Positions 5,119 through 63,982 of a stretch of 64,000 nucleotides of DNA are shown here, in pieces. This DNA comes from Candidatus Nealsonbacteria bacterium. GTDB lineage: Bacteria; Patescibacteriota; Minisyncoccia; Minisyncoccales; RBG-13-36-15. How positions within the stretch are numbered: position 1 is the first letter of the stretch; every line of letters starts with the position of its first letter. Location of the stretch: assembly GCA_011050465.1 (NCBI GenBank), contig DRFQ01000009.1, positions 192,334 through 256,333 on the forward strand, in the 5' to 3' direction. A program made the position numbers and the translations under genes. The notes beneath the pieces are model-generated. The model ran no database searches. It saw only the letters and a program-made list of their open reading frames with translations, and was not told the DNA's origin.

Positions 5119-5178
5119 ACCCCGTTAGAGATTTGTTCTCTTTGCATTTCTTCTTGCTCCCGGAATCTCTAACGGGGT
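5119..5178. repeat. palindromic element, ccccgttagag family (intergenic copy)
   Basis: Perfect 15-bp inverted repeat accccgttagagatt / aatctctaacggggt. The left arm plus the inner tgttctctttg is shared with the copy inside rsmH at 46376-46442. Confidence 0.7.
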
Positions 5179-7215: not shown

Positions 7216-7833
7216 CTATCCTTCAGGGCTTATTTCTTTATATTTTAATTCAGACTTTTGCCACCTCCAGAACATATCCGAATGCTCTTGATATCCCATG
7301 CGCGCAAAAGTTGATATATCTCTATGTCCGTCTGTTTTAGAATCTTCTACCTCGTAATCCATGCCCCATATATCTCCGCCTATGCTAATCCACGAATCAT
7401 TTATCTTTTGATATATAAAAAAGGGGCCATTTCCCGAAGCACCACGGATAGACTCACCACAAATCCATCCAGGCGTGAAAATAAATTCCTCTATACCGTC
7501 GCTATTTAAATCTATACGCTCGGAATCGAAACCGTAGTCTTGGTTAGTAAGTCCTTCTTTCCCTTTTTGTTTACAATCCTCAGAACCAAACCTCTCAATG
7601 ACCTCACCAAACATAGTGGAAATAAGTCCATTTGGAGTTTCTTCTTTCGTCGAAGATACTTCAGTTTCTTCCGGCCCCACTCCTTCTGGTGGTTTTACTT
7701 CTGGTGTCTCAACTTCCTCTCTTGGAACAAGCCAAGACTGATAAGCCAGAATCCCTCCGCCAATAATAACAGCCAGAATAACAATAGTTAAAACGTATTT
7801 TAAGTTAATTTTGCCTTGAGCAATGAATGGCAT
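7216..7833 (-). CDS. membrane-anchored hypothetical protein (MPFIxxGKxNLKY anchor family)
   Basis: The N-terminus MPFIAQGKINLKYVLTIVILAVIIGGGILAYQSW is paralogous to that of 47821-48543. It is followed by a P/E-rich linker and a unique C-terminal domain. Confidence 0.6.
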   Translation of the reverse strand: MPFIAQGKINLKYVLTIVILAVIIGGGILAYQSWLVPREEVETPEVKPPEGVGPEETEVSSTKEETPNGLISTMFGEVIERFGSEDCKQKGKEGLTNQDYGFDSERIDLNSDGIEEFIFTPGWICGESIRGASGNGPFFIYQKINDSWISIGGDIWGMDYEVEDSKTDGHRDISTFARMGYQEHSDMFWRWQKSELKYKEISPEG

Positions 7834-8066: not shown

Positions 8067-8306
8067 CTTTTCTCATCATACCTTCTTCCCCCACAAGCAA
8101 CAATACGGGTCAATCCTTCGATAAACTCAGGACACTTCGCCTTCGTTCCACGAAGTCAAAGTGCTGGGGGTCGTGGACGACCTACCTCGCCGGCAAGGCG
8201 GGCCTTCGAACATTTGAGTGGGCTAATTTTATTCGAGAACCTGAGTTAATTCTGAATCAATCAAGGGAGTTGTTGTAAATCCTATGATGTTTTCAATAAA
8301 ACAAAA

Positions 8307-14765: not shown

Positions 14766-14997
14766 ATTTTCCGAGATTAAATTATTAAATATAAATACGA
14801 CCTTTTTTTCTTTATTTCATTATACCTCCCTCTCTGCAAAACAAAAATCCCGAGGTCACATACCTCGGGCATGAGGCGGCTCGGTCCCCCTTCGCCAAGA
14901 TTACGGACGGATAAATCCTCCTTCGCTAAAGCTACGGAGGAACAAGTCGGGGCTATTTTAAGCTAAAACCTGTCCCGTAGTAAGCTCTGCTTTACTA

Positions 14998-15070
14998 CCG
15001 GGATGAGACAAATGGGACATTACTTGGGGGTATATTTTGGTGTCTCATTTTGGGTATACCCTACTACAAA
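14998..15070 (-). repeat. modular repeat, copy D (H2 module only)
   Basis: ccgggatgagacaaatgggacat...tatattttggtgtctcattt...taccctactac aligns with the right part of copies A-C. Confidence 0.7.
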
Positions 15071-17110: not shown

Positions 17111-17315
17111 GCTGGCATCCTCGGTCTAGAACCCACAATTTAAGAGGAAATTCGGAGGTTTGAGGCGTGTCTCATTGACGCGTCTCGGTCAGGGTGTCCC
17201 GCCCTCTAAGCAAATAGATAAACATACAGCATAGAGGGCCGGGATGAGACAAATGAGACACTATTTAAGGGTATATTTTGGTGTCTCATTTCGGGCGTTC
17301 TATACCCTGCTACTT
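17111..17315 (-). repeat. modular repeat, copy A (full: L + H1 + H2 modules)
   Basis: ctggcatcctcggtctagaacc...gtgtctcattgacgcgtctcggtc, then hairpin cccgccctcta...tagagggccggg (17198-17243), then aaatgagacac-n19-gtgtctcattt (17251-17291). Confidence 0.8.
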
Positions 17316-17348: not shown

Positions 17349-17656
17349 CTTTTCATAACTGGGAGTCGTGGTACAGAACTAGCCGGTTCGTACCTACACC
17401 GTATCATATGGTACTGGGGTGGACGATTTTCCTTGTCCGTCCGAAGTCCCGCAAGGCGGGACGAAGAAGGAGAACAACAAATTGGGTGGAACTTATCCTC
17501 TATCCTCAATTAACTTTATTACAATCTCAAGAATTATTATCCCCTACCTAATATTTTTGGTAAATCCTTCAATTTAACCGTGATGCTTCACGAAATGTGA
17601 AATCGTGCTCAAGAATTTCTGTCAAAGAACTCTTCGATTCCCCCTGAGGAAAACCA

Positions 17657-20965: not shown

Positions 20966-21079
20966 ACGCGTCTCGGTCGGGGTGTCCCGCCCTCTAAGCA
21001 AATAGATAAACATACAGCATAGAGGACCGGGATGAGACAAATGGGACACTATTTAAGGGTATATTTTGGTGTCTCATTT
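20966..21079 (-). repeat. modular repeat, copy B (H1 + H2)
   Basis: acgcgtctcggtcggggtgtcccgccctctaagcaaatagataaacatacagcatagaggaccgggatgagacaaatgggacac...gtgtctcattt. Near-identical to copies A and C. Confidence 0.8.
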
Positions 21080-21141
21080 TTAGCTTATCCTACTGATGCC
21101 TGAAGGGATATTTCGCTATTTCAGAAATTTGTAGCCAACTA

Positions 21142-22506: not shown

Positions 22507-22620
22507 CGACGTCTCGGTCGGGGTGTCCCGCCCTCTAAGCAAATAGATAAACATACAGCATAGAGGGCCGGGATGAGACGAATGAGACACTATTTAAGGG
22601 TATATTCTGGTGTCTCATTT
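22507..22620 (-). repeat. modular repeat, copy C (H1 + H2)
   Basis: cgacgtctcggtcggggtgtcccgccctctaagc...catagagggccgggatgagacgaatgagacac...gtgtctcattt. Confidence 0.8.
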
Positions 22621-22721
22621 CTAGGGAATTATTGGCTGTTTAAAAAGAAAAGAGCCACCGTAGTTGAAGAGTGTTTGTGCTCTTTTCATCGGGTGGCTTG
22701 GGCCGAAGCCCTTAATGATGG

Positions 22722-24124: not shown

Positions 24125-24208
24125 CTGGCATCCTCGGTCTAGAACCTGTGTTTTGAAGGGAAATTAGGGGGTTTGAGGCGTGTCTCATTGACGCGTCTCG
24201 GTCGGGGG
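24125..24208 (-). repeat. modular repeat, copy E (L module only, truncated at cgtctcggtcgggg)
   Basis: ctggcatcctcggtctagaacc...ggtttgaggcgtgtctcattgacgcgtctcggtcgggg aligns with 17113-17193 of copy A and then breaks off. Confidence 0.75.
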
Positions 24209-24239
24209 GTAATCTTTTTTTTATTAGAATTTTTCTATC

Positions 24240-26346: not shown

Positions 26347-26408
26347 GATTATATAACGATTTAATGTTAATGACCCGTCTCGGTCGACCGATACCGAGCA
26401 CAAGACTG

Positions 26409-31997: not shown

Positions 31998-32275
31998 TTC
32001 GAGCGAGCGTAACGAGCGAGAACCCCGCCCTCTATGCTATATGTATTATGTTTATATCTTGCAAAGAAAAAGAAACAGTCATTTTTATATAGGTTATACT
32101 AATAATTTAAAAAAGAGGGTTAAACAACACCAAAGAAAAGATCAATCTCGGTTAATTTATTACGAAGCTTATCTGTCAGAAAAAATAGCAAGGATAAGAG
32201 AAAGAAGATTAAAACATTATGGAAGTGCCTGGCGAGCCCTCAGAAAGAGAATTGGTGCTTAGAGGGCGGGGTGTC
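31998..32275 (+). mobile_element. hairpin-bracketed GIY-YIG element (candidate autonomous copy)
   Basis: Inverted arms ccccgccctctatgc (32023-32037) and gcttagagggcgggg (32257-32271) enclose the ORF. The flank ttcgagcgagcgtaacgagcgagaa is shared with the ORF-less copy at 47291-47382. Confidence 0.5.
32041..32262 (+). CDS. GIY-YIG nuclease family protein
   Basis: MYYVYILQRKRNSHFYIGYTNNLKKRVKQH...RERRLK carries the GIY/YIG motifs with the conserved R and E. Confidence 0.8.
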   Translation: MYYVYILQRKRNSHFYIGYTNNLKKRVKQHQRKDQSRLIYYEAYLSEKIARIRERRLKHYGSAWRALRKRIGA

Positions 32276-42625: not shown

Positions 42626-44332
42626 TTATTCGTAATCTGGAGGAATTTGCCAATAATCAATGATATATTTTGCCAAATCGTGAAAAATTGGCACAGCTGA
42701 ATATTCAGCGGTCTTAGTTTTTGGGTTGTTAAGTTTAACTAAAATTTGGAAACGAGGATTATAGGCTGGAGCGAATCCAACAAAGCTCTGAATGGTTTTG
42801 TCTGAATAGCCTGATTTATTCATTCCCAAAGCAGACCAAGCAATTTGGGCAGTACCGGTCTTTCCGGCAATATAATAACCGGGGATTTTCGCGCTCTTGG
42901 CATAACCTTGTTCCACCACATTGACTAGCATTTTTATTAATTGTGAGGCGGTTTGAGAGGAAATAATTTGAGAGCCTGCTATGACAGGCTGTGTCTCTTT
43001 TTCTTCCCCATTGGTTAAAACCTTTTTCACCATATAGGGTTTCACCAACCTTCCTTTGTTGGTGATAGCTGAAAAGGCTCTAAAAAGTTGGATGGGTGTC
43101 ATCTCGATTCCTTGACCAAAAGAAGCTGTAGCGAAATTGATTTCATACCCTTTTTTAAACTCCTTATTTTCTGAAAAAACTTCTCCTTCTAGATCAATTC
43201 CGGTTGGTTTGAAAATGGCAAATTTTTCAAGATATTTCAAGAAAAGCTCATGACCAACCTGACTTTCAGCAAAAACTGCTCCGGTATTTATCGATCTTTC
43301 TAAGACTTCGGTCATTGTTCTTTGACCCCAAACTCTATTGTCGTAATTGTAAATTGTATAACCTCCGACCTTAACAAATCCCTTATCTTCATAAGTTGTC
43401 TGTGGGGTCAGTTTTTTTTCGTTCAAACCGGCGGCCATGACTATAGGCTTAAAAACAGAGCCTGGTTCAAAGATTTTTTGAATAGCTGAGTTCTGAAAAA
43501 TTTCCCAATTTTCAACTTTTGAATACTGATTAGGATTAAAATTAGGAAAGTTAGCTATTGCCAGTATTTCACCGGAGATAGTATCTCCAACTATAATTGT
43601 CCCTTCCTCGATATCGAAATTTTCTTTAGCTTCCCATAATAACTTTTCTGCCATAAATTGGATATTATAATCCAAAGTTAAAACAAGATCGGAGCCTCCT
43701 TCGGCCGGCAGAAATTTTTCAGCAAAGGCTAAAAAAAATCCTTGAGCACTTCTTTCTCCTTCTTGAAAACCTTCCCTGCCTTCTAAAATATCATTATAAT
43801 AACCCTCTATTCCGTATTCTCCACCTCCATCTGCTTGTAAAAAACCTATTGTTTGGGAAGCTAAAAACTTTTGAGGATAAAACCTGCCTTTTTCTTTCTC
43901 CAGATAGACGCCCGTTAAATCTAATTCCTTTAATTCTTTTAATTCTTCTTCTGTTAATTTCTTTTTTATGATTGTATAGAAAGTTTCTCTGCTTAATCTT
44001 TCTAAAATAAAGTCTTGATCTAATTCAAGAATTCCGCTTAATTGTTGAGCTATGCCTGTTTTATCCTGGACTTCATTTGGAGCAGCATAAACCAAAGACC
44101 ATTCTTTATTGATTGCCAAAGGATAAAGATTGTCATTCTTATCTCTTAAAAAAATTTCCCCTCTTGTGCTGGGAATTTTTAAAAAAATTTTTTGCTGCCC
44201 CTTGGCTAAGGCCCGCCAATAATCTTGATTTAAAACTTGAAGAAAAAATAAGCGGCTAATGATTACCGCTCCAAAAAAAATAATAAAGATAAAGATTAAA
44301 TTAATCCGCCATTGCTTCATAAAAAAAATCAA
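42626..44332 (-). CDS. ftsI: class B penicillin-binding protein / peptidoglycan D,D-transpeptidase FtsI
   Basis: N-terminal TM helix, SVFK (SxxK), SIN (SxN) and KTGT motifs, in the dcw position after the ftsL-like gene. Confidence 0.9.
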   Translation of the reverse strand: MIFFMKQWRINLIFIFIIFFGAVIISRLFFLQVLNQDYWRALAKGQQKIFLKIPSTRGEIFLRDKNDNLYPLAINKEWSLVYAAPNEVQDKTGIAQQLSGILELDQDFILERLSRETFYTIIKKKLTEEELKELKELDLTGVYLEKEKGRFYPQKFLASQTIGFLQADGGGEYGIEGYYNDILEGREGFQEGERSAQGFFLAFAEKFLPAEGGSDLVLTLDYNIQFMAEKLLWEAKENFDIEEGTIIVGDTISGEILAIANFPNFNPNQYSKVENWEIFQNSAIQKIFEPGSVFKPIVMAAGLNEKKLTPQTTYEDKGFVKVGGYTIYNYDNRVWGQRTMTEVLERSINTGAVFAESQVGHELFLKYLEKFAIFKPTGIDLEGEVFSENKEFKKGYEINFATASFGQGIEMTPIQLFRAFSAITNKGRLVKPYMVKKVLTNGEEKETQPVIAGSQIISSQTASQLIKMLVNVVEQGYAKSAKIPGYYIAGKTGTAQIAWSALGMNKSGYSDKTIQSFVGFAPAYNPRFQILVKLNNPKTKTAEYSAVPIFHDLAKYIIDYWQIPPDYE

Positions 44333-44350: not shown

Positions 44351-44704
44351 TTATTTTGTCACTACTTGAGATCCTACTAATTGAATATATCTTATCTCTT
44401 CTATCTTTTCGTAACTTAAATCTTTAATCAATGATTCAATATTTTCTAAGGTATTTGCTTGGGCAAATTTTACCCCTAAAGCTTGAGTCTCTTCGGAGAG
44501 AAAGTTAAATTCTGCTTCATAATTTTTGAGAAGATAAGTTTTCTGAATAACTGAATTAATCTGAAAAATATAGAGGACAAAAAAGATGCCAATTAAACCA
44601 AAACATAAAAGATAAAAAATTCTAAGGTTGAACTTCCATTTTAAACCAGGGATAAAAGGACGGATGGTTAAAATAAATGAATTAATAGCTAAAATATTAT
44701 TCAT
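44351..44704 (-). CDS. FtsL-like cell-division protein (by position and topology)
   Basis: 117 aa with a single TM helix and then a coiled-coil-like segment, located between rsmH and ftsI. Confidence 0.5.
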   Translation of the reverse strand: MNNILAINSFILTIRPFIPGLKWKFNLRIFYLLCFGLIGIFFVLYIFQINSVIQKTYLLKNYEAEFNFLSEETQALGVKFAQANTLENIESLIKDLSYEKIEEIRYIQLVGSQVVTK

Positions 44705-44789
44705 ACATTATTTGAATATTTAAACATCCAAGTATTAAGTAGAATCCAAGATGTTTAAATGTTTAGGTATTAATATGTTAATATGTTTA

Positions 44790-44918
<129 letters not shown>

Positions 44919-44940: not shown

Positions 44941-45750
44941 TCAGAAGAAGAGGGGTAATATTGAGAAGTTTCCTAAGGAAACAGCTAGTCGCACTATTTT
45001 ATTGATTGGTGAATCAAGTTCTAAAGCTGCTTTTAGATTTCCTGTTTGAGAATCAAATACAAATAAAACTCCAGGTTTTTCACCCCGATGACTGCGTCCA
45101 GTGACATAGACTATGTCAGAGGCGTCAACCCAGAGGCTTTCACCAAAGGTACCAAAATGTGGAACGAAATCTATATGGAATTGATAAAAAGGATCCTCAG
45201 ATAAATTAAATTTACGAATTTCATAACTTTCCCTATTTACAGCAGTAATTTTGACCGGAAAGCTTGTTAGCCATAGCCCATATGGTTTCCCTCTGGTTAC
45301 TCCATATGGAAAAATAAAAATTTCATTTCCTGTATCATAAGAGTAAATTGCCCCTGAAAAAATTTTCTTTGAAAGAGATTCGTCTGTCGTTTCAATTAAA
45401 GAAATCATATCAGATGGCAGTTCGTCTAAATACAATCTTTCTTCCTCATTATCCAAAATCCATCTTTTTGTGGAATTAAATTCTGAATCAGATACTTTAA
45501 TATGCCTTAAAATTTTCCAGTTTTTTGTGTCTATCAGCCAGATGGTTGGTTGAAAAGTACTCTTCCCATGATAAACGCAAAAGCAGTCTGAAGAGTAGTG
45601 CACACCACTATCAAAAACATAGAGTATATCTCCCTTTTTCGCTAAAGCTTCTGGACTACTACCTACCCCAATATTCATAATTGCTAAAAAGTAGGAACCG
45701 AAGATTAGAAAAAGAATTACTGGTAAAGCTATTAAGAACTTTTTTATCAT
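44941..45750 (-). CDS. hypothetical membrane-anchored protein inserted in the dcw cluster
   Basis: 269-aa ORF with an N-terminal TM helix and a beta-rich body. No recognisable family. Confidence 0.6.
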   Translation of the reverse strand: MIKKFLIALPVILFLIFGSYFLAIMNIGVGSSPEALAKKGDILYVFDSGVHYSSDCFCVYHGKSTFQPTIWLIDTKNWKILRHIKVSDSEFNSTKRWILDNEEERLYLDELPSDMISLIETTDESLSKKIFSGAIYSYDTGNEIFIFPYGVTRGKPYGLWLTSFPVKITAVNRESYEIRKFNLSEDPFYQFHIDFVPHFGTFGESLWVDASDIVYVTGRSHRGEKPGVLFVFDSQTGNLKAALELDSPINKIVRLAVSLGNFSILPLFF

Positions 45751-45767
45751 AATATATTTTAGTATGT

Positions 45768-46823
45768 CTATATTTTTACTGCTGCTCTTAATTTAGCCGA
45801 CCTTGATCGAGGATTGACTCGAATTTCTTCAGGGCTTGGCCTGACCGGCTTTTTTGTTAAAATTCTAAGCCTCGATACTATTCGCCTTTGGCGAAAGTAC
45901 GGGGCAGGCAATCCCGCCTTCGATAAATCTTCGGCGGACAAGTCGGCGGGCAAGCCCTCCTTAGCTTTCTCAAATTTTGTTTCGCAAACTTTGAGAGGAT
46001 TAGCCATTTTTTTGAAGAAATTTTTTACAATCCTATCTTCCAAAGAATGGAAAGAAATTATAACTAATCTTCCGCCTTTCCTTATGCTTTCCAGAGCCTG
46101 AGGAAGGGTTCTTTCTAGATTATTTAATTCGTCATTAACGGCGATCCTTAAGGCCTGAAAAGTTCTAGTGGCAAAATGGATACGGTTCCTCAAATATCTC
46201 TTTGGCACAACATATTTTATGGTTTCTGCCAGCTGGAAGGTGGTTTTAATAGGCCTTATGTTTCGTTTTTCAATAATACTTTCGGCAATAATCCGGGCAT
46301 ATCTTTCTTCTCCATAGTCCTTTAAGATTTTCTCTATTGCATCTTTTGACCAAAAATTGAGAATCTTCTCAGCAGTTAACCCCGTTAGAGGTTTGTTCTC
46401 TTTGTGCTTCCGCCAAGCCCCGTTGACCTTTAACGGGGTTAAAGGATTCTGAGGATTGTATCTCATGTCCAGGGGTTCATTTCTCAAAAAGCTGAATCCA
46501 CGACCCGACTCTTCCAAATGCCAGCTGGACATTCCTAAATCAAACAAAATTCCAGAGATTGGCCTAATTTTTTTAATGATCTCTTTTAGGTTGATATAGG
46601 AGTCTCGAACTAAAGTTAATCGTTTCCTAATTCCTGTGGCTTTCAACTTTTTATATAATTCCTGGTCTATTTCAATCCCTAATACTTTTCCTCTGGGTCC
46701 ATTTTTCTCCAATATGGCTAAACTGTGTCCTCCTTGGCCAAACGTACAATCAATAAAATTTTCGTTTGATTTTGGGTCAAGATATTCAAGAATTTCTTTC
46801 TGGAGAACAGGGATATGAATCAT
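45768..46823 (-). CDS. rsmH: 16S rRNA (cytosine1402-N4)-methyltransferase
   Basis: HIPVL, DCTFGQGGHS, FDLGMSSWHLE, GRGFSF, RTFQALRIAVNDEL, ISFHSLEDRIVK and [10 protein letters not shown]. Carries two extra in-frame segments. Confidence 0.9.
   Translation of the reverse strand: MIHIPVLQKEILEYLDPKSNENFIDCTFGQGGHSLAILEKNGPRGKVLGIEIDQELYKKLKATGIRKRLTLVRDSYINLKEIIKKIRPISGILFDLGMSSWHLEESGRGFSFLRNEPLDMRYNPQNPLTPLKVNGAWRKHKENKPLTGLTAEKILNFWSKDAIEKILKDYGEERYARIIAESIIEKRNIRPIKTTFQLAETIKYVVPKRYLRNRIHFATRTFQALRIAVNDELNNLERTLPQALESIRKGGRLVIISFHSLEDRIVKNFFKKMANPLKVCETKFEKAKEGLPADLSAEDLSKAGLPAPYFRQRRIVSRLRILTKKPVRPSPEEIRVNPRSRSAKLRAAVKI
45872..45956. repeat. about 84-nt GC-rich repeat inserted in frame in rsmH (C-terminal region)
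   Basis: Present in rsmH but absent from the duplicated remnant at 44794-44914. Contains sub-palindromes ttcgcctttggcgaa and ggcaggcaatcccgcc. Encodes LPADLSAEDLSKAGLPAPYFRQRRIVSR. Confidence 0.7.
46376..46442. repeat. palindromic element, ccccgttagag family, inserted in frame in rsmH
   Basis: 17-bp inverted repeat ttaaccccgttagaggt / acctttaacggggttaa (one mismatch). Shares ccccgttagagRtttgttctctttg with 5119-5178. Encodes about NPLTPLKVNGAWRKHKENKPLTG. Confidence 0.7.
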
Positions 46824-46847: not shown

Positions 46848-47279
46848 TTAGACGCCGAGCTCTTTTAACCTTTCGGCTATATCACCTACTGCCATCTCAG
46901 TTTTCTTTTTATATTCCTGCCACTTCTTTTCGTCCCAGATTTCAATTCGATTATAAACTCCGGCAATAACTACTTTTTTTGTTAGTTGACCATATCTTTT
47001 TAAATAATCGGGAATTAGAATTCTTCCCAGACTATCTAATTTTGCATCCATAGCTCCTGTCAACATTAATCTGGCAAATCCCCTGGCGTCAGCCTGAGCC
47101 AAAGGAAGTTTGCTTAATTTTAGAGCTAAAGTTCGCCACTCTTTATTGGGGTAAAGAAAAAGGCAACTGTCTAATCCCCTGGTAATAATTGCCTGCTTTC
47201 CTAAAAGCTGCCGGAATTTTGCCGGTATAGCTAATCTTTTCTTTTCATCAATTGAATATGTATATTCGCCTATGAACAT
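46848..47279 (-). CDS. mraZ: transcriptional regulator MraZ
   Basis: Two SpoVT/AbrB-like halves with DEKKRLAIP and DSLGRILIP (DxxxR motifs). First gene of the dcw cluster. Confidence 0.9.
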   Translation of the reverse strand: MFIGEYTYSIDEKKRLAIPAKFRQLLGKQAIITRGLDSCLFLYPNKEWRTLALKLSKLPLAQADARGFARLMLTGAMDAKLDSLGRILIPDYLKRYGQLTKKVVIAGVYNRIEIWDEKKWQEYKKKTEMAVGDIAERLKELGV

Positions 47280-47290
47280 GTTAGATAGTG

Positions 47291-47382
47291 AGCTCGGGAG
47301 CGAGCCGGTTAATACCCCGCCCTCTAAGCTTAATGAAATATTACATAGGAGGCGGGGTTCTCGTTCGCTACGCTCACTCGAA
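47291..47382 (-). repeat. ORF-less copy of the GIY-YIG hairpin element
   Basis: Arms ccccgccctcta (47315-47326) and taggaggcgggg (47346-47357) with a 19-nt loop. The flank ggttctcgttcgctacgctcactcgaa is the reverse complement of the flank at 31998-32022, with a few mismatches. Confidence 0.65.
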
Positions 47383-47820: not shown

Positions 47821-48543
47821 CTAAAACTTCAAGCTTGTATAAATTTTTTCAACCACCTCTAAGTGTCTCTCCCTTTCACCTTCAGCCAACCCATAGTATA
47901 AATCTATTTCTAAAGCCCCCTCCCACCCAGGGTATAGCTCAGAATCTGGTACAAACTCAGGAAATGGTAAATAGATAATGTATAAAGGCGTAAGCCCAGG
48001 TATTTCAGTTGCTATATAAATCCCTTCTCTATTGTCAATGATTACATTTTTTTCTGAGATAAGTTTCAAACCCATAAGTTGTAATCTATTTAATACGGTC
48101 CCTCTAAAGGTAGAGGAGAGCTCTTCGGGCATGAAAGCGGTATTTAGGAAGGAAAGCCCATAACCTCTCTGCAATTCCGTTTCCGTATAATCGGGTAAAT
48201 AAAAATTTACGTCGCTTAAATCTCCAGAAAGGCTTTCTTCGACAATTAAACCCTTTGGGTATTTAATTGTATAACCAAATTTTTTATCAGTATATAATTT
48301 CCAATTGGCTGTTTCATCTACTGGAACCTTTTCTTCTGGGACTTCTACCTCTCCTGGAATTTCTACGGAGGGTTTTACTCCTGGCACTTTAGCTTCTTCT
48401 TTTGGCGACCACCAACCTTCCGGCGCTAAAGCTTTGGAGGACAAGTACTGATAACCTAAAATCCCGCCGCCCACAATAACAGCCAGCACAACAACAATTA
48501 ATATATATTTTAAGTTAGTTTTACCTTCCGTAATAAAGGGCAT
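47821..48543 (-). CDS. membrane-anchored hypothetical protein (MPFIxxGKxNLKY anchor family)
   Basis: MPFITEGKTNLKYILIVVVLAVIVGGGILGYQYL is paralogous to the N-terminus of 7216-7833. The C-terminal domain is unique. Confidence 0.6.
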   Translation of the reverse strand: MPFITEGKTNLKYILIVVVLAVIVGGGILGYQYLSSKALAPEGWWSPKEEAKVPGVKPSVEIPGEVEVPEEKVPVDETANWKLYTDKKFGYTIKYPKGLIVEESLSGDLSDVNFYLPDYTETELQRGYGLSFLNTAFMPEELSSTFRGTVLNRLQLMGLKLISEKNVIIDNREGIYIATEIPGLTPLYIIYLPFPEFVPDSELYPGWEGALEIDLYYGLAEGERERHLEVVEKIYTSLKF

Positions 48544-52924: not shown

Positions 52925-53113
52925 AAACCTTACTTAAAAATTTTTACCTTAAAAACCCATCTTGCTTACGATGGGTTTTGAAATTTTAAGCCCGAGGCAA
53001 CCTTGTCCGCCGTAGCTTCGGCGAGGATGAAAACGAAGGAGGACTTGTCCGTCCGACTGGTCCGCCGAAAGTTTACTGAAGGTGGAAGCTTAAGCGAAGG
53101 AGGAAAGCCTGTT

Positions 53114-62938: not shown

Positions 62939-63982
62939 TTAATTAGGTTCTGGGGTAGATTCTGAAGTAGATTCATCGGCTGGTGGTGGCTCATCGGCAA
63001 GTGGCTCGCCCTGAGCCGGGTCGAAGGGTTCTTCTTCTGGTGGCTCTTCTACTGATGGTGATTCCTCGGCAGGAGGTTCCTCTACTGGTGGCTCGCCCTG
63101 AGCCGGGTCGAAGGGTTCCTCTACTGGAGGCTCTTCAACAGGCGGTTCTTCTTCAATTAAAGGCTCTTCAACTGGCGGTTCTTCTGTCGACGGTTCCTCT
63201 GCTGGGGTTGGTTCTTCGGCTGGAAGTTCTTCAGCTGGAGGCTCTTCAGTAGGTGGTTCTTCTTCAACTGGAGGCTCTTCGGCTGGTGGAGGTTCCTCTG
63301 CAGGGGGTTCCTCTGCTAGTGGCTCGCCCTGAGCCGGGTCGAAGGGTTCTTCGGTAGGCATTTCTTCGCTTGGAGCTTCTTCCCCGGGATTATCATTAAT
63401 TAATTGGGCTGATTGCGTTCCTAGTAAAAAGTTATCTCCTGCTAATAAAAATGATTCAAAAACTAGTTCTGGCTGCGGAGTATCAAACGCAAGAGTTGCC
63501 CCTAAACATTGTCTCGTATGGCCAAGATTATTTAAATAGTCTAAAGTATTTTTTATTTCCGCCTGTTCTTCTCTGGTTGAATTAGGGTCTCGCAAAATAT
63601 CATCTGCCCTGACTACGAGTTCATATATAGTTATATTCTCGCTTTCGACAACATAATTTCCTACTCCAAAATGGGCAATATTGAATTTCATTGCTAATAA
63701 CTGAGCTTTTAACATATCTCTCATTTCATCGGCATTAGCATTTTCGAAAACTTCATCAACCTTCTCTTGTGTATCGATTACATCATCTCCCAGCAATTGA
63801 GGCAGATAATTATTATCAACATAAATTTCGGGGTGATTCTTCCAGAAGCCAATTGTCCGGGTCTCTAAGGGTGTACATATATGAGCAGTGACATTAATTA
63901 CGTGAGCCTCAAAAGCAGATAACGCAAAAGCTTGGGCAAGAAATGCAAAAAGAATTAAGCCAAAGATAACGGCCTTTTTCAA
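62939..63982 (-). CDS. secreted protein with Pro/Glu-rich C-terminal tail containing three PFDPAQGEP units
   Basis: Signal peptide MKKAVIFGLILFAFLAQAFA, a helical N-terminal domain, and then about 150 aa of (P/E)-rich repeats. Confidence 0.6.
   Translation of the reverse strand: MKKAVIFGLILFAFLAQAFALSAFEAHVINVTAHICTPLETRTIGFWKNHPEIYVDNNYLPQLLGDDVIDTQEKVDEVFENANADEMRDMLKAQLLAMKFNIAHFGVGNYVVESENITIYELVVRADDILRDPNSTREEQAEIKNTLDYLNNLGHTRQCLGATLAFDTPQPELVFESFLLAGDNFLLGTQSAQLINDNPGEEAPSEEMPTEEPFDPAQGEPLAEEPPAEEPPPAEEPPVEEEPPTEEPPAEELPAEEPTPAEEPSTEEPPVEEPLIEEEPPVEEPPVEEPFDPAQGEPPVEEPPAEESPSVEEPPEEEPFDPAQGEPLADEPPPADESTSESTPEPN

What the first reader, a model, noticed from the sequence alone, without database searches (positions are those of the whole stretch)
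45872..45956. Second in-frame repeat insertion in rsmH, with an internal empty-site control in the same window
The functional rsmH 3' region reads ...EKAKEG[LPADLSAEDLSKAGLPAPYFRQRRIVSR][12 protein letters not shown].... The duplicated remnant of the same region at 44794-44914 reads ...[19 protein letters not shown]... and lacks the bracketed segment of about 84 nt. The extra DNA (tcgatactattcgcctttggcgaaagtacggggcaggcaatcccgccttcgataaatcttcggcggacaagtcggcgggcaagcc) is GC-rich and contains small palindromes. It belongs to the same loose family as intergenic sequences at 8085-8235, 14870-14960, 17420-17470 and 52990-53110 (ccttcgataaa..., cggacaag..., gcgaaggagg motifs). The remnant shows the insertion happened after the duplication, or was lost from the remnant. 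Either way it is an indel of a repeat unit in a coding region that kept the frame.
Basis: seen in the sequence. Interest (0 to 1): 0.6.

Follow-up and report, generated by a model that had tools for sequence, protein, structure and literature searches.

The report
In-frame hairpin repeats inside rsmH
Two short GC-rich hairpin DNA modules sit in frame in a flexible linker of an essential rRNA methyltransferase gene of a Nealsonbacteria (CPR) genome. One of them belongs to a 30-base hairpin family that I found in many unrelated environmental bacteria, often inside housekeeping genes.

Summary
Functional rsmH (45768-46823, minus strand) carries 84 extra bases (45870-45953) that the downstream 3' remnant (44787-44912) lacks. 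About 60 Parcubacteria RsmH have only an 8-residue linker at this site.

The block is two 42-nt modules, not one unit.
- Module 1 (45912-45953) belongs to a hairpin family that I call R1 (CTTG-TCCNCC-RWAGCTTTAGCGAA-GGN'GGA). The window holds five R1 copies. One is a clean 30-nt in-frame insertion in a second gene.
- The R1 pattern matched at least 120 metagenome contigs (32-70% GC). Two base pairs covary. Copies lie inside DnaE, RecJ, NusA, DegT and other genes.
- Module 2 (45870-45911) is a separate hairpin. I found it only in rsmH orthologues, at the same site, 93-95% identical.

The remnant is the original 3' end, displaced when ORF269 was inserted. Its 27 bases next to the gap differ by 33%, so it does not date the insertion. 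Misassembly is excluded by six identical assemblies.

The closest known kinds are intragenic REPs and Rickettsia palindromic elements, but R1 lacks their terminal tags and no transposase was seen. I rate it a new variant of a known kind. The mobilising mechanism is inferred, not shown.

The parts
45912..45953 (-). Module 1. A 42-nt in-frame insert encoding LPADLSAEDLSKAG (RsmH residues 291-304). It consists of an extra 12-nt 5' arm (CTTGCCCGCCGA) followed by a complete 30-nt R1 hairpin unit at 45913-45942.
   Evidence: It is the top hit in the window of covariance model R1, which was built only from unrelated metagenome contigs: 48.2 bits, E 1.7e-13. It is 81% identical over 57 nt to the intergenic copy 53029-53085, E 5e-9. 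No other RsmH examined carries it.
45870..45911 (-). Module 2. A 42-nt in-frame imperfect palindrome (GCCCCGTACTTTCGCC-AAA-GGCGAATAGTATCGAGG) encoding LPAPYFRQRRIVSR (residues 305-318).
   Evidence: It folds at -13.7 kcal/mol, z -2.7. The same sequence lies at the same rsmH site in L007/L008 (40/42) and L010 (39/42), where the rest of the gene is 70-72% identical in DNA. I found it nowhere else in the window or the related loci, nor in the viral contigs. Model R1 does not hit it.
45768..46823 (-). rsmH, the 16S rRNA m4C1402 methyltransferase gene. It encodes 351 aa, about 55 aa longer than most relatives.
   Evidence: Pfam Methyltransf_5, E 9e-96. Against the T. maritima structure 1m6y there are two extra segments, residues 128-148 and 273-316. 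The AlphaFold model has pLDDT below 50 at 127-147, 279-292 and 304-315 within an otherwise well-modelled fold (mean pLDDT 74).
44787..44912 (-). Remnant of the rsmH 3' end ([15 protein letters not shown]...AAVKIV plus stop), with neither module.
   Evidence: Translation. 44794-44888 is 100% identical to 45772-45866. It runs on into the ancestral stop, intergenic hairpin and ftsL exactly as in the closest relative L009.
44941..45750 (-). ORF269, an orphan gene lying between rsmH and its displaced 3' end.
   Evidence: It is absent from the syntenic loci L007 and L009. It has no Pfam hit and no homologue other than itself among 5.8 billion proteins.
48416..48447 (-). A second in-frame R1 copy. 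It is a 30-nt insertion (YLSSKALAPE) in the membrane-protein ORF 47821-48543.
   Evidence: R1 hit of 39.1 bits, E 1.6e-10. There is a clean 10-residue / 30-nt gap against the paralogue 7216-7833. Orientation and reading frame are the same as in rsmH.
14916..14946 (-). Intergenic R1 copy, 31 nt long (one extra base), with a degenerate unit next to it at 14880-14913.
   Evidence: R1 hit of 43.3 bits, E 6.6e-12; sequence.
53002..53086 (+). Intergenic cluster of R1 units between convergent genes. It holds 53002-53043 (with an expanded loop), an extra 5' arm at 53044-53056, and 53057-53086.
   Evidence: R1 hits of 35.6 and 28.7 bits; sequence.
46380..46442 (-). The other in-frame insertion in rsmH (LTPLKVNGAWRKHKENKPLTG, 63 nt). 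It belongs to a different palindromic family with CCCCGTTARAG...CTYTAACGGGG ends.
   Evidence: It is 73% identical over 60 nt to the intergenic copy 5120-5177, E 4e-6. It folds with z -2.8. It is present in P0006, P0012, P0015 and P0017 but absent from closer orthologues.

Best explanation
The 84 bases are two short palindromic DNA modules. They were added, at different times, to a tolerant linker of RsmH between the methyltransferase core and the C-terminal ILTKKP...[10 protein letters not shown] segment. They are simply translated as 28 extra, probably disordered, residues.

Module 1 is one extra 12-nt arm plus one unit of a REP-like hairpin family that I call R1. A unit has this layout:
- a weakly conserved CYTG tag;
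- a 6-bp stem whose sequence covaries;
- a 3x3 purine-rich internal loop (GTA/GAA);
- a 2-bp inner stem;
- a TTTA loop.

The arms are 12 and 18 nt long and four of the six reading frames are open, so any combination of arms keeps the frame.

R1 spreads within and between genomes as a non-autonomous element. Copies that land in essential genes survive only in frame and in surface loops. Module 2 is a different hairpin that entered the same hot spot earlier and is shared with other Nealsonbacteria-like rsmH genes.

Shown: the anatomy, family membership, the ancestral empty state, independent insertions at the same hot spot, and frame compatibility.

Inferred: that the modules move as hairpin-forming single-stranded DNA through a trans-acting enzyme (as REPs are thought to through HUH/Y1 transposases) or by recombination between copies; and that they are neutral or nearly neutral for RsmH.
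For: Ancestral state. Most (about 60) of 65 Parcubacteria RsmH have a linker of 8 residues or fewer, typically [FL][KR]EKAKEG followed by xLKILTKKP. Only the window, L007, L010, L009 and L038 carry GC-rich inserts.

Rapid turnover at the site. L009 is 88% identical in DNA yet carries two other hairpin modules instead, one of them R1-like in the opposite orientation.

Family.
- Model R1 finds five copies of at least 28 bits in the 64-kb window. It finds only four in 1.18 Mb from 83 other Parcubacteria loci.
- The R1 pattern matches 7 viral-collection contigs and at least 120 metagenome contigs of 32-70% GC.
- The two pairs left free by the search pattern covary with all four Watson-Crick types: pair 8-27 as GC18/UA14/CG5/AU3, pair 15-20 as CG48/UA10/AU2/GC1. 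No shuffle out of 500 reached the observed score.

In-frame insertions elsewhere.
- A 30-nt insertion in ORF 47821-48543 relative to its paralogue.
- 57 of 128 metagenome copies lie in ORFs of at least 120 aa. The hosts include DnaE, GltX, MiaA, POR, RecJ, NusA, DegT and an ABC ATPase.
- In DegT, a 69-nt insert sits between an invariant G and DEVITVSH. It is absent from 8 of 10 homologues at 72-78% identity, and a different hairpin insert occupies the same site in a ninth.

Tolerance. pLDDT is below 50 at the inserts within an otherwise well-modelled fold (mean pLDDT 74). The insert falls between residues 260 and 262 of T. maritima RsmH.

Precedent. REPs and RPEs inside genes are documented (PMC3733652, PMC10969869).
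Against: - No transposase of any kind was seen. No protein family recurs next to R1 copies.
- No target-site duplication is evident.
- The window copies are only 75-82% alike, so there is no sign of recent bursts. The six assemblies show no presence/absence polymorphism.
- Module 2 has no second copy anywhere I could search, so calling it a repeat rests only on its palindromic form and on the hot spot.
- The high conservation of module 2 (40/42 against about 72%) could reflect selection on an RNA or DNA structure rather than mobility.
- The loop conservation in R1 is partly imposed by the search pattern.
Confidence: 0.65

Rival explanations
1. The extra 28 residues are a lineage-specific functional extension of RsmH, for instance a contact with the 30S subunit or a partner protein. 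On this view they are kept by selection on the protein, and the resemblance to intergenic DNA is secondary.
For: RsmH of other bacteria also has a variable segment at this position; E. coli 3tka aligns end to end with extra length. Module 2 is conserved in three orthologues. In-ORF R1 copies favour the two frames that give amphipathic or hydrophilic peptides, LSAEALAKA and SFAKATEDK: 18 of the 20 long ORFs inspected.
Against: The same 30-nt unit occurs in intergenic DNA and in both orientations in unrelated proteins. The closest relative, L009 (88% DNA identity), has quite different inserts at the site. Most (about 60) of the 65 RsmH examined lack any insert. Module 2 is conserved at synonymous positions too (40/42 against 54% third-position identity in the rest of the gene), which points to the nucleic acid rather than the peptide. 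pLDDT there is below 50.
Confidence: 0.1
2. The hairpins are kept for a function in RNA or DNA at this place. They could act as a transcript stabiliser, a pause or attenuator within the dcw operon mRNA, or a protein-binding site. R1 would then be a functional structured motif rather than a selfish element.
For: Covariation preserves the stem and the inner pair. G-T wobbles are three times commoner on the forward strand than A-C mismatches: 18 against 6. The GUA/GAA internal loop resembles a loop-E / sarcin-ricin module (my knowledge). REPs are credited with such roles (PMC3733652). Module 2 is conserved well beyond the coding constraint.
Against: In genes, R1 occurs about equally in both orientations: 11 same-strand and 9 opposite in the long ORFs inspected. 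A single transcribed-strand structure is therefore not conserved. It is not tied to any gene class or to a fixed distance from genes. No Rfam family matches. Most rsmH orthologues manage without it.
Confidence: 0.15
3. The inserts arose locally, without any mobile family. Replication slippage or template switching at quasi-palindromes would have expanded the native GCTAAGGAGGG sequence into hairpins.
For: The native AKEG codons (GCTAAGGAGGG) resemble the 3' arm of R1 (GCGAAGGNGGA). Several modules are flanked by short direct repeats: TTGCC around module 1, and GCTAAG around the module in L010.
Against: Module 1 matches, at 48 bits, a model built from unrelated contigs. It is 29/30 identical to a copy in the unrelated contig L153. 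Local slippage cannot produce the same 30-mer in DnaE, RecJ, NusA and DegT of other organisms.
Confidence: 0.04
4. The duplicated remnant, and hence the filled/empty contrast, is an assembly artefact that mixes two strains.
For: None beyond the general risk that metagenome assemblies run at repeats.
Against: Six contigs from different samples and assemblers (ENA, JGI and NCBI records) are 100% identical over the 2601 nt from mraZ to ftsL, or over the 1326 nt that the shortest contig covers. The five long enough include ORF269 and the remnant.
Confidence: 0.01

Closest known systems
REP elements (repetitive extragenic palindromes), including the intragenic REPs of Di Nocera et al. 2013 (PMC3733652)
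   Same: Both are 20-40-nt imperfect palindromes with 6-9-bp stems whose bases covary between subfamilies. Both form singles, dimers and clusters and lie mostly between convergent or co-directional genes. A minority of copies sit inside known genes, often replication and repair genes, and are translated. From memory, the layout (tag, stem, 3x3 internal loop, short inner GC stem, TTTA loop) resembles E. coli REPs.
   Different: REPs have a terminal GTAG or CGTC tag. R1 has neither at its end: its 5' tag is CYTG, and GTAG occurs inside the loop. No RAYT gene was seen. The R1 loop is nearly the same in contigs from 32 to 70% GC, whereas REP families are mostly limited to a species or genus. The arm lengths are multiples of three.
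Rickettsia palindromic elements (RPE; Ogata et al. 2000, as summarised in PMC10969869)
   Same: Palindromic repeats inserted in frame in unrelated housekeeping genes of a reduced genome. They are translated, compatible with the protein fold, and no transposase is known for them.
   Different: RPEs are about 100-150 bp, are found in Rickettsia, and carry a CGTC tag (PMC3733652). R1 units are 30 nt with no sequence resemblance, and they occur in many lineages.
MITEs (Correia/NEMIS, ERIC, BOX, RUP and others)
   Same: Small non-autonomous repeats that can fuse in frame with host ORFs (PMC10969869).
   Different: MITEs are 70-300 bp with terminal inverted repeats and target-site duplications derived from a parent IS. 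R1 is 30 nt, and I found no target-site duplication and no parent element.
GC clusters and 'byp' elements of yeast mitochondria, and PARCEL palindromic coding repeats (recalled from memory, not tested here)
   Same: GC-rich palindromic mini-elements that invade AT-rich genomes, including coding regions. PARCELs are dyad-symmetric coding repeats spread patchily across taxa.
   Different: Different hosts, sizes and sequences. Byps are bypassed by the ribosome rather than translated. PARCEL units are 25 residues long and lie in surface proteins.

Membership tests
R1 hairpin family (defined here by model R1) | A match to the 30-position covariance model: CTTG tag, 6-bp stem, RWA/GAA internal loop, 2-bp inner stem, TTTA loop. 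| tested here: met
   Module 1 scores 48.2 bits, E 1.7e-13, over the full model length. Module 2 gives no hit at E up to 10.
R1 hairpin family (defined here by model R1) | The hairpin is supported by compensatory changes across members. | tested here: met
   Pairs 8-27 and 15-20 each show all four Watson-Crick types. 38 cells have a change on both sides against 13.9 expected, and 0 of 500 shuffles reach the observed score. Secondary copies, which the search pattern did not select, add covariation at pairs 5-30 and 6-29.
REP (GTAG/CGTC-tagged palindromic repeats) | A short (20-40 nt) imperfect palindrome repeated many times in a genome. | tested here: inconclusive
   Size and palindrome are met. 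Copy number is 5 in 64 kb; the whole genome was not available to count.
REP (GTAG/CGTC-tagged palindromic repeats) | An unpaired GTAG or CGTC tetranucleotide at one end. | tested here: not met
   The 5' end is CTTG/CYTG and the 3' end is GGA. GTAG occurs only inside the loop, in about half of the copies. Definition taken from PMC3733652.
REP (GTAG/CGTC-tagged palindromic repeats) | Association with a RAYT (Y1/HUH) transposase gene flanked by the repeats. | tested here: inconclusive
No gene family recurs near the copies. The rest of the genome was not searchable.
Rickettsia palindromic elements | A repeat of about 100-150 bp, inserted in frame in ORFs and encoding a conserved peptide. | tested here: not met
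   In-frame insertion is met. Size is not: the unit is 30 nt and the modules 42 nt. No sequence comparison with RPEs was run.
MITE | Terminal inverted repeats with a target-site duplication, length 70-300 bp. | tested here: not met
   The unit is 30 nt. Copies sitting inside short tandem arrays (L094, L107, L138, L140, L211) have exact 30-nt boundaries with no duplicated flank. The paralogue comparison shows a clean 30-nt gap.
RsmH (Methyltransf_5) | A full-length match to the family profile. | tested here: met
   PF01795, E 8.8e-96. PDB 1m6y, E 4.9e-60, with both inserts falling outside the aligned blocks.

The most novel reading that the evidence does not exclude
R1 may be a previously undescribed, structure-conserved 30-nt hairpin element that is built to be compatible with coding sequence. 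Its arms are 12 and 18 nt, and four of its six frames are open. It occurs across many bacterial phyla (contigs of 32-70% GC). It repeatedly colonises hot spots in essential genes (rsmH, dnaE, recJ, nusA, degT) with exact boundaries and no target duplication. It would be moved by machinery that is not encoded nearby and is not the known REP/RAYT system.
Probability: 0.35. Interest if true: 0.8.

Novelty: new variant of a known kind. Interest (0 to 1): 0.6.

Why it matters
If the reading is right, CPR and many other uncultured bacteria carry a class of tiny hairpin modules that add residues to essential proteins.
- This would explain many odd GC-rich 'insertions' and spurious peptides (LSAEALAKA, SFAKATADK) in metagenome annotations.
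- It gives natural markers of surface loops that tolerate insertions.
- A 30-nt element with a loop conserved across phyla and no linked transposase poses a clear question of mechanism: what recognises it?
- For annotation pipelines, model R1 could flag such inserts.

Tried and rejected
- **Rfam:** the gathering scan of the window found only three tRNAs. The E-value scan of three R1-bearing contigs found nothing.
- **Literature:** full-text searches for the R1 sequence, its peptides, and a remembered IS608 hairpin sequence gave no paper. CPR plus palindrome or REP searches gave nothing relevant. The likeness to the IS608 TnpA hairpin (TAGCTTTAGC) therefore remains an unverified memory.
- **BLAST of R1:** no match in 72,556 plasmids or 50,697 phage genomes.
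- **Module 2 pattern in viral contigs:** none.
- **Transposase hunt:** the IS200 TnpA probe gave one marginal hit, E 0.03. Clustering the ORFs near 128 R1 copies showed no recurrent neighbour.
- **ORF269 homologues,** sought to trace the donor of the insertion: none.
- **Misassembly:** rejected.
- **Membership of 8085-8235 in the family:** rejected by the model.
- **MAFFT on the two rsmH 3' copies** misplaced the gap. The clean 84-nt gap comes from reading the sequences and translations.
- **Target-site duplication:** the TTGCC flanking module 1 is equally well explained as the start of module 2, so no claim is made.
Full report
**Setting.** The window has 37% G+C. Its RsmH is identical to a protein annotated from a Candidatus Nealsonbacteria MAG. 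The finding lies in the dcw cluster on the minus strand:
- mraZ, 46848-47279
- rsmH, 45768-46823
- an orphan ORF of 269 aa, 44941-45750
- a fragment of the rsmH 3' end
- an ftsL-like gene, 44351-44704
- a PBP gene, 42626-44332

**Check of the observation.** The functional gene reads ...EKAKEG LPADLSAEDLSKAG LPAPYFRQRRIVSR LRILTKKP.... The fragment reads [43 protein letters not shown], then a stop.
- 44794-44888 and 45772-45866 are identical over 95 nt.
- The functional copy has 84 extra bases, 45870-45953.
- MAFFT misplaced the gap, but the sequences and translations show one clean block.
- The block has about 57-60% G+C.
- The 27 nt around the gap are not identical. Nine bases next to it differ at five positions (RLR against QLQ). 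The 18 bases encoding EKAKEG differ at four positions, all third codon positions.

**Not an artefact.** Six contigs from different samples and pipelines (ENA, JGI, NCBI) carry the same RsmH. They are 100% identical to the window over 2601 nt from mraZ to ftsL, or over the 1326 nt that the shortest contig covers. The five contigs long enough include ORF269 and the fragment.

**It is an insertion.**
- Against the T. maritima structure 1m6y, the query has two extra segments, residues 128-148 and 273-316.
- Among 65 RsmH genes of Parcubacteria-type genomes, most (about 60) have a linker of at most 8 residues at this site. The typical form is [FL][KR]EKAKEG followed by xLKILTKKP.
- Only the window and four relatives (L007, L010, L009, L038) have GC-rich inserts there.
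- An AlphaFold model built on the orthologue alignment gives an otherwise well-modelled fold (mean pLDDT 74). pLDDT falls below 50 at 127-147, 279-292 and 304-315, which is where the inserts are.

**Two modules, two histories.** The 84 nt split into two 42-nt parts that both begin TTGCC.

*Module 2* (45870-45911) is an imperfect palindrome (z -2.7).
- It is present at the same place in rsmH of L007/L008 (40/42 identical) and L010 (39/42).
- Those genes are otherwise only 70-72% identical in DNA, with 54% identity at third positions.
- I found no other copy in the window, the related loci or the viral collection.

*Module 1* (45912-45953) is unique to this genome among the RsmH examined. Unlike module 2, it has relatives elsewhere in the window.

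The closest relative, L009, has 88% DNA identity and 87% protein identity outside the site. It lacks both modules and carries two other hairpin modules instead. One of these (CCCTCCTTAGCTTCAGCTAAGGAGGA) resembles module 1 in the opposite orientation. The site is therefore a hot spot with fast turnover.

**The family of module 1 (R1).**
- Within the window the best match is the intergenic stretch 53029-53085: 81% over 57 nt, E 5e-9.
- The pattern CTTGTYCNCCNWAGNTTTANCGMMGG, taken from two window copies, matched 7 contigs of the viral collection and at least 120 metagenome contigs.
- By my calculation the pattern is expected about once per 10^12 bases.
- The contigs range from 32 to 70% G+C.
- The consensus is CTTG-TCCNCC-(G/A)(T/A)AGCTTTAGCGAA-GGN'GGA.
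- The positions left free by the pattern behave as a hairpin:
  - The four bases after the pattern are CGGA, AGGA, TGGA or GGGA in 105 of 125 copies.
  - N/N' pairs are GC 45, TA 29, AT 6, CG 5, GT 11 and TG 7.
  - The inner pair shows C-G, T-A, A-T and G-C.
  - On 67 distinct sequences, no shuffle out of 500 reached the observed covariation, and sliding the partner destroys it.
  - Eleven secondary copies, not selected by the pattern, add covariation at two more stem pairs. They show that the 5' tag is only loosely CYTG.
- A covariance model built from these unrelated contigs scored the window copies as follows:

| Window position | Bits | Context |
|---|---|---|
| module 1, 45913-45942 | 48.2 (E 1.7e-13) | in rsmH |
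| 14916-14946 | 43.3 | intergenic |
| 48416-48445 | 39.1 | in ORF 47821-48543 |
| 53002-53043 | 35.6 | intergenic |
| 53057-53086 | 28.7 | intergenic |
| 17432-17460 | 13.1 (weak) | intergenic |
| 8085-8235 | no hit | intergenic |

- In 1.18 Mb from 83 other Parcubacteria loci the model finds only four comparable hits. This lineage is therefore enriched about twenty-fold and the distribution is patchy.
- No Rfam family matches. No plasmid or phage genome holds the sequence. No paper in the library contains the sequence or its peptides.

**In-frame insertion is a habit of this family.**
- In the window, ORF 47821-48543 has a clean 30-nt (10-residue, YLSSKALAPE) insertion relative to its paralogue 7216-7833. 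Orientation and frame are the same as in rsmH.
- In the metagenome contigs, 57 of 128 copies lie in ORFs of at least 120 aa.
- In long ORFs they read as (D/Y)LSA(E/V)ALAKA(D/E) on the same strand or as SFAKAT(A/E)DK on the opposite strand. LVRRSFSEGG is rare.
- Pfam confirms that the hosts are ordinary genes: DNA polymerase III alpha, GltX, MiaA, POR, RecJ, NusA, DegT aminotransferase, an ABC ATPase and Wzy_C.
- For DegT, two units (69 nt) lie exactly between an invariant G and DEVITVSH. Eight of ten homologues at 72-78% identity are empty there, and one more has a different hairpin-type insert at the same site.
- The element is built from a 12-nt 5' arm and an 18-nt 3' arm. These also occur in nested or tandem combinations such as A-A-B-B. 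Both arm lengths are multiples of three, and four of the six frames are open. Module 1 is A-A-B, which gives 42 nt.
- Intergenic copies are not held to multiples of three: 31 nt at 14916-14946, and an expanded loop at 53002-53043.

**What the fragment is.**
- Aligned with L009, the fragment runs on into the ancestral end of the gene (KIV plus stop), the intergenic hairpin and ftsL. The functional copy departs right after AAVK into new sequence and ORF269.
- L007 and L009 have mraZ-rsmH-ftsL with no ORF269.
- The fragment is therefore the original 3' end left in place when a 978-nt segment was inserted. That segment carried ORF269 and a piece of rsmH.
- Just upstream of the identical 95 nt, the functional copy (GCTTAGAATTTTA) agrees with L009. 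The fragment (GCTTCAGATTTTA) does not.
- The EKAKEG differences are all at third positions, so that stretch diverged while it was coding.
- Two scenarios fit:
  - a Campbell-type crossover with DNA that carried an insert-free rsmH allele;
  - an older duplication followed by gene conversion that stopped at the 84-nt heterology.
- Both scenarios need the sharp step from 100% to 67% identity. Neither lets the fragment date the insertion.
- ORF269 has no homologue, so the donor cannot be traced.

**Mechanism.**
- Shown: the anatomy, the family, the empty ancestral state, independent hits at hot spots, frame compatibility, and placement in low-confidence loops.
- Inferred: R1 is a non-autonomous element of the REP kind. 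It would be moved in trans as a single-stranded hairpin, or copied between sites by recombination. Selection would then keep only in-frame copies in tolerant loops.
- Against the REP/RAYT version:
  - There is no GTAG or CGTC end tag (definition from PMC3733652).
  - No gene recurs as a neighbour.
  - No target duplication was seen. Copies inside short tandem arrays have exact 30-nt boundaries.
- The native AKEG codons (GCTAAGGAGGG) resemble the 3' arm of R1. That may explain why this site is hit. This is a guess.

**Comparison with what is known.** REPs inside genes and RPEs are documented (PMC3733652, PMC10969869). The kind of event is therefore known. What differs here:
- a 30-nt unit with its own tag and a loop that hardly changes across very different genomes;
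- arms that are multiples of three;
- occurrence in a CPR genome;
- a second, unrelated hairpin (module 2) kept almost unchanged in orthologues.

**Verdict.** The 'internal control' is weaker than it looks, and the block is composite. I rate it a new variant of a known kind, interest 0.6.

Noticed in passing
window 46380-46442 (in rsmH) and 5120-5177 (intergenic): This is the other in-frame insertion in rsmH (63 nt, LTPLKVNGAWRKHKENKPLTG). It belongs to a separate palindromic family with CCCCGTTARAG...CTYTAACGGGG ends and has an intergenic relative (73%, E 4e-6). It is present in four distant orthologues (P0006, P0012, P0015, P0017) but absent from closer ones.
   Followed up: partly
window 14997-15065, 17112-17306, 20966-21094, 22507-22635, 24125-24210; motif also at 26369, 31998-32042, 32227, 47280-47382: Families of 69-, 86- and 114-nt direct repeats, 81-97% identical, share the motif GCGTCTCGGTCGGGGTGTCCCGCCCTCTAAGC. 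They recur between small genes over about 10 kb. A 45-nt inverted pair links 31998-32042 with 47338-47382, just upstream of mraZ. Their nature is unknown.
   Followed up: no
window 62939-63982 (minus-strand ORF), repeats at 62966-63388: A Pro/Glu-rich ORF contains three in-frame copies of GGCTCGCCCTGAGCCGGGTCGAAGGGTTC (read as EPFDPAQGEP) within 15-nt tandem repeats. This may be another hairpin-type module in coding sequence.
   Followed up: no
window 44941-45750; loop-only match at 45638-45651: ORF269 has no homologue among 5.8 billion proteins and has an N-terminal membrane segment. It contains the R1 loop GAAGCTTTAGCGAA (read as PEALAKKG; E 0.005) without the stems. This may be a decayed copy.
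   Followed up: partly
L094, L096, L107, L138, L140, L211, L163, L186 (metagenome and viral-collection contigs): R1 hairpins often sit in phase inside arrays of 7-8-nt tandem repeats, many of which start with TTG (TTGAATA, TTGGCTGA, TTGTTGA, GGATTGAC). The repeat continues on both sides of an exact 30-nt unit. No explanation.
   Followed up: no
L193, about 20 nt upstream of TTTGATCCTGGCTCAG: One R1 copy lies immediately upstream of the 5' end of a 16S rRNA gene.
   Followed up: no
Alignment A2 of RsmH orthologues (P0005, P0010, P0055, P0012, P0006, P0015, P0095, P0026, P0030): Other RsmH orthologues carry further, unrelated short inserts at several fixed sites. Examples are ETRAQNYFVLGRAHKICAP, VHPVRGQRGLVERQRKQTSNG, SRMAEFPISNFQFS and TSFAKFRCRKHPVPDRCG. 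RsmH in this clade seems to collect such inserts repeatedly.
   Followed up: no
L217 (RecJ) and L111 (MiaB-MiaA): Host proteins with an R1 copy also hold other peptide signatures typical of hairpin repeats (ATAGKP; CHCEAESRDNPVTEASEHSRDRFATLAMT; SPKASAGK). This hints at several co-occurring families of coding-compatible hairpin modules.
   Followed up: no
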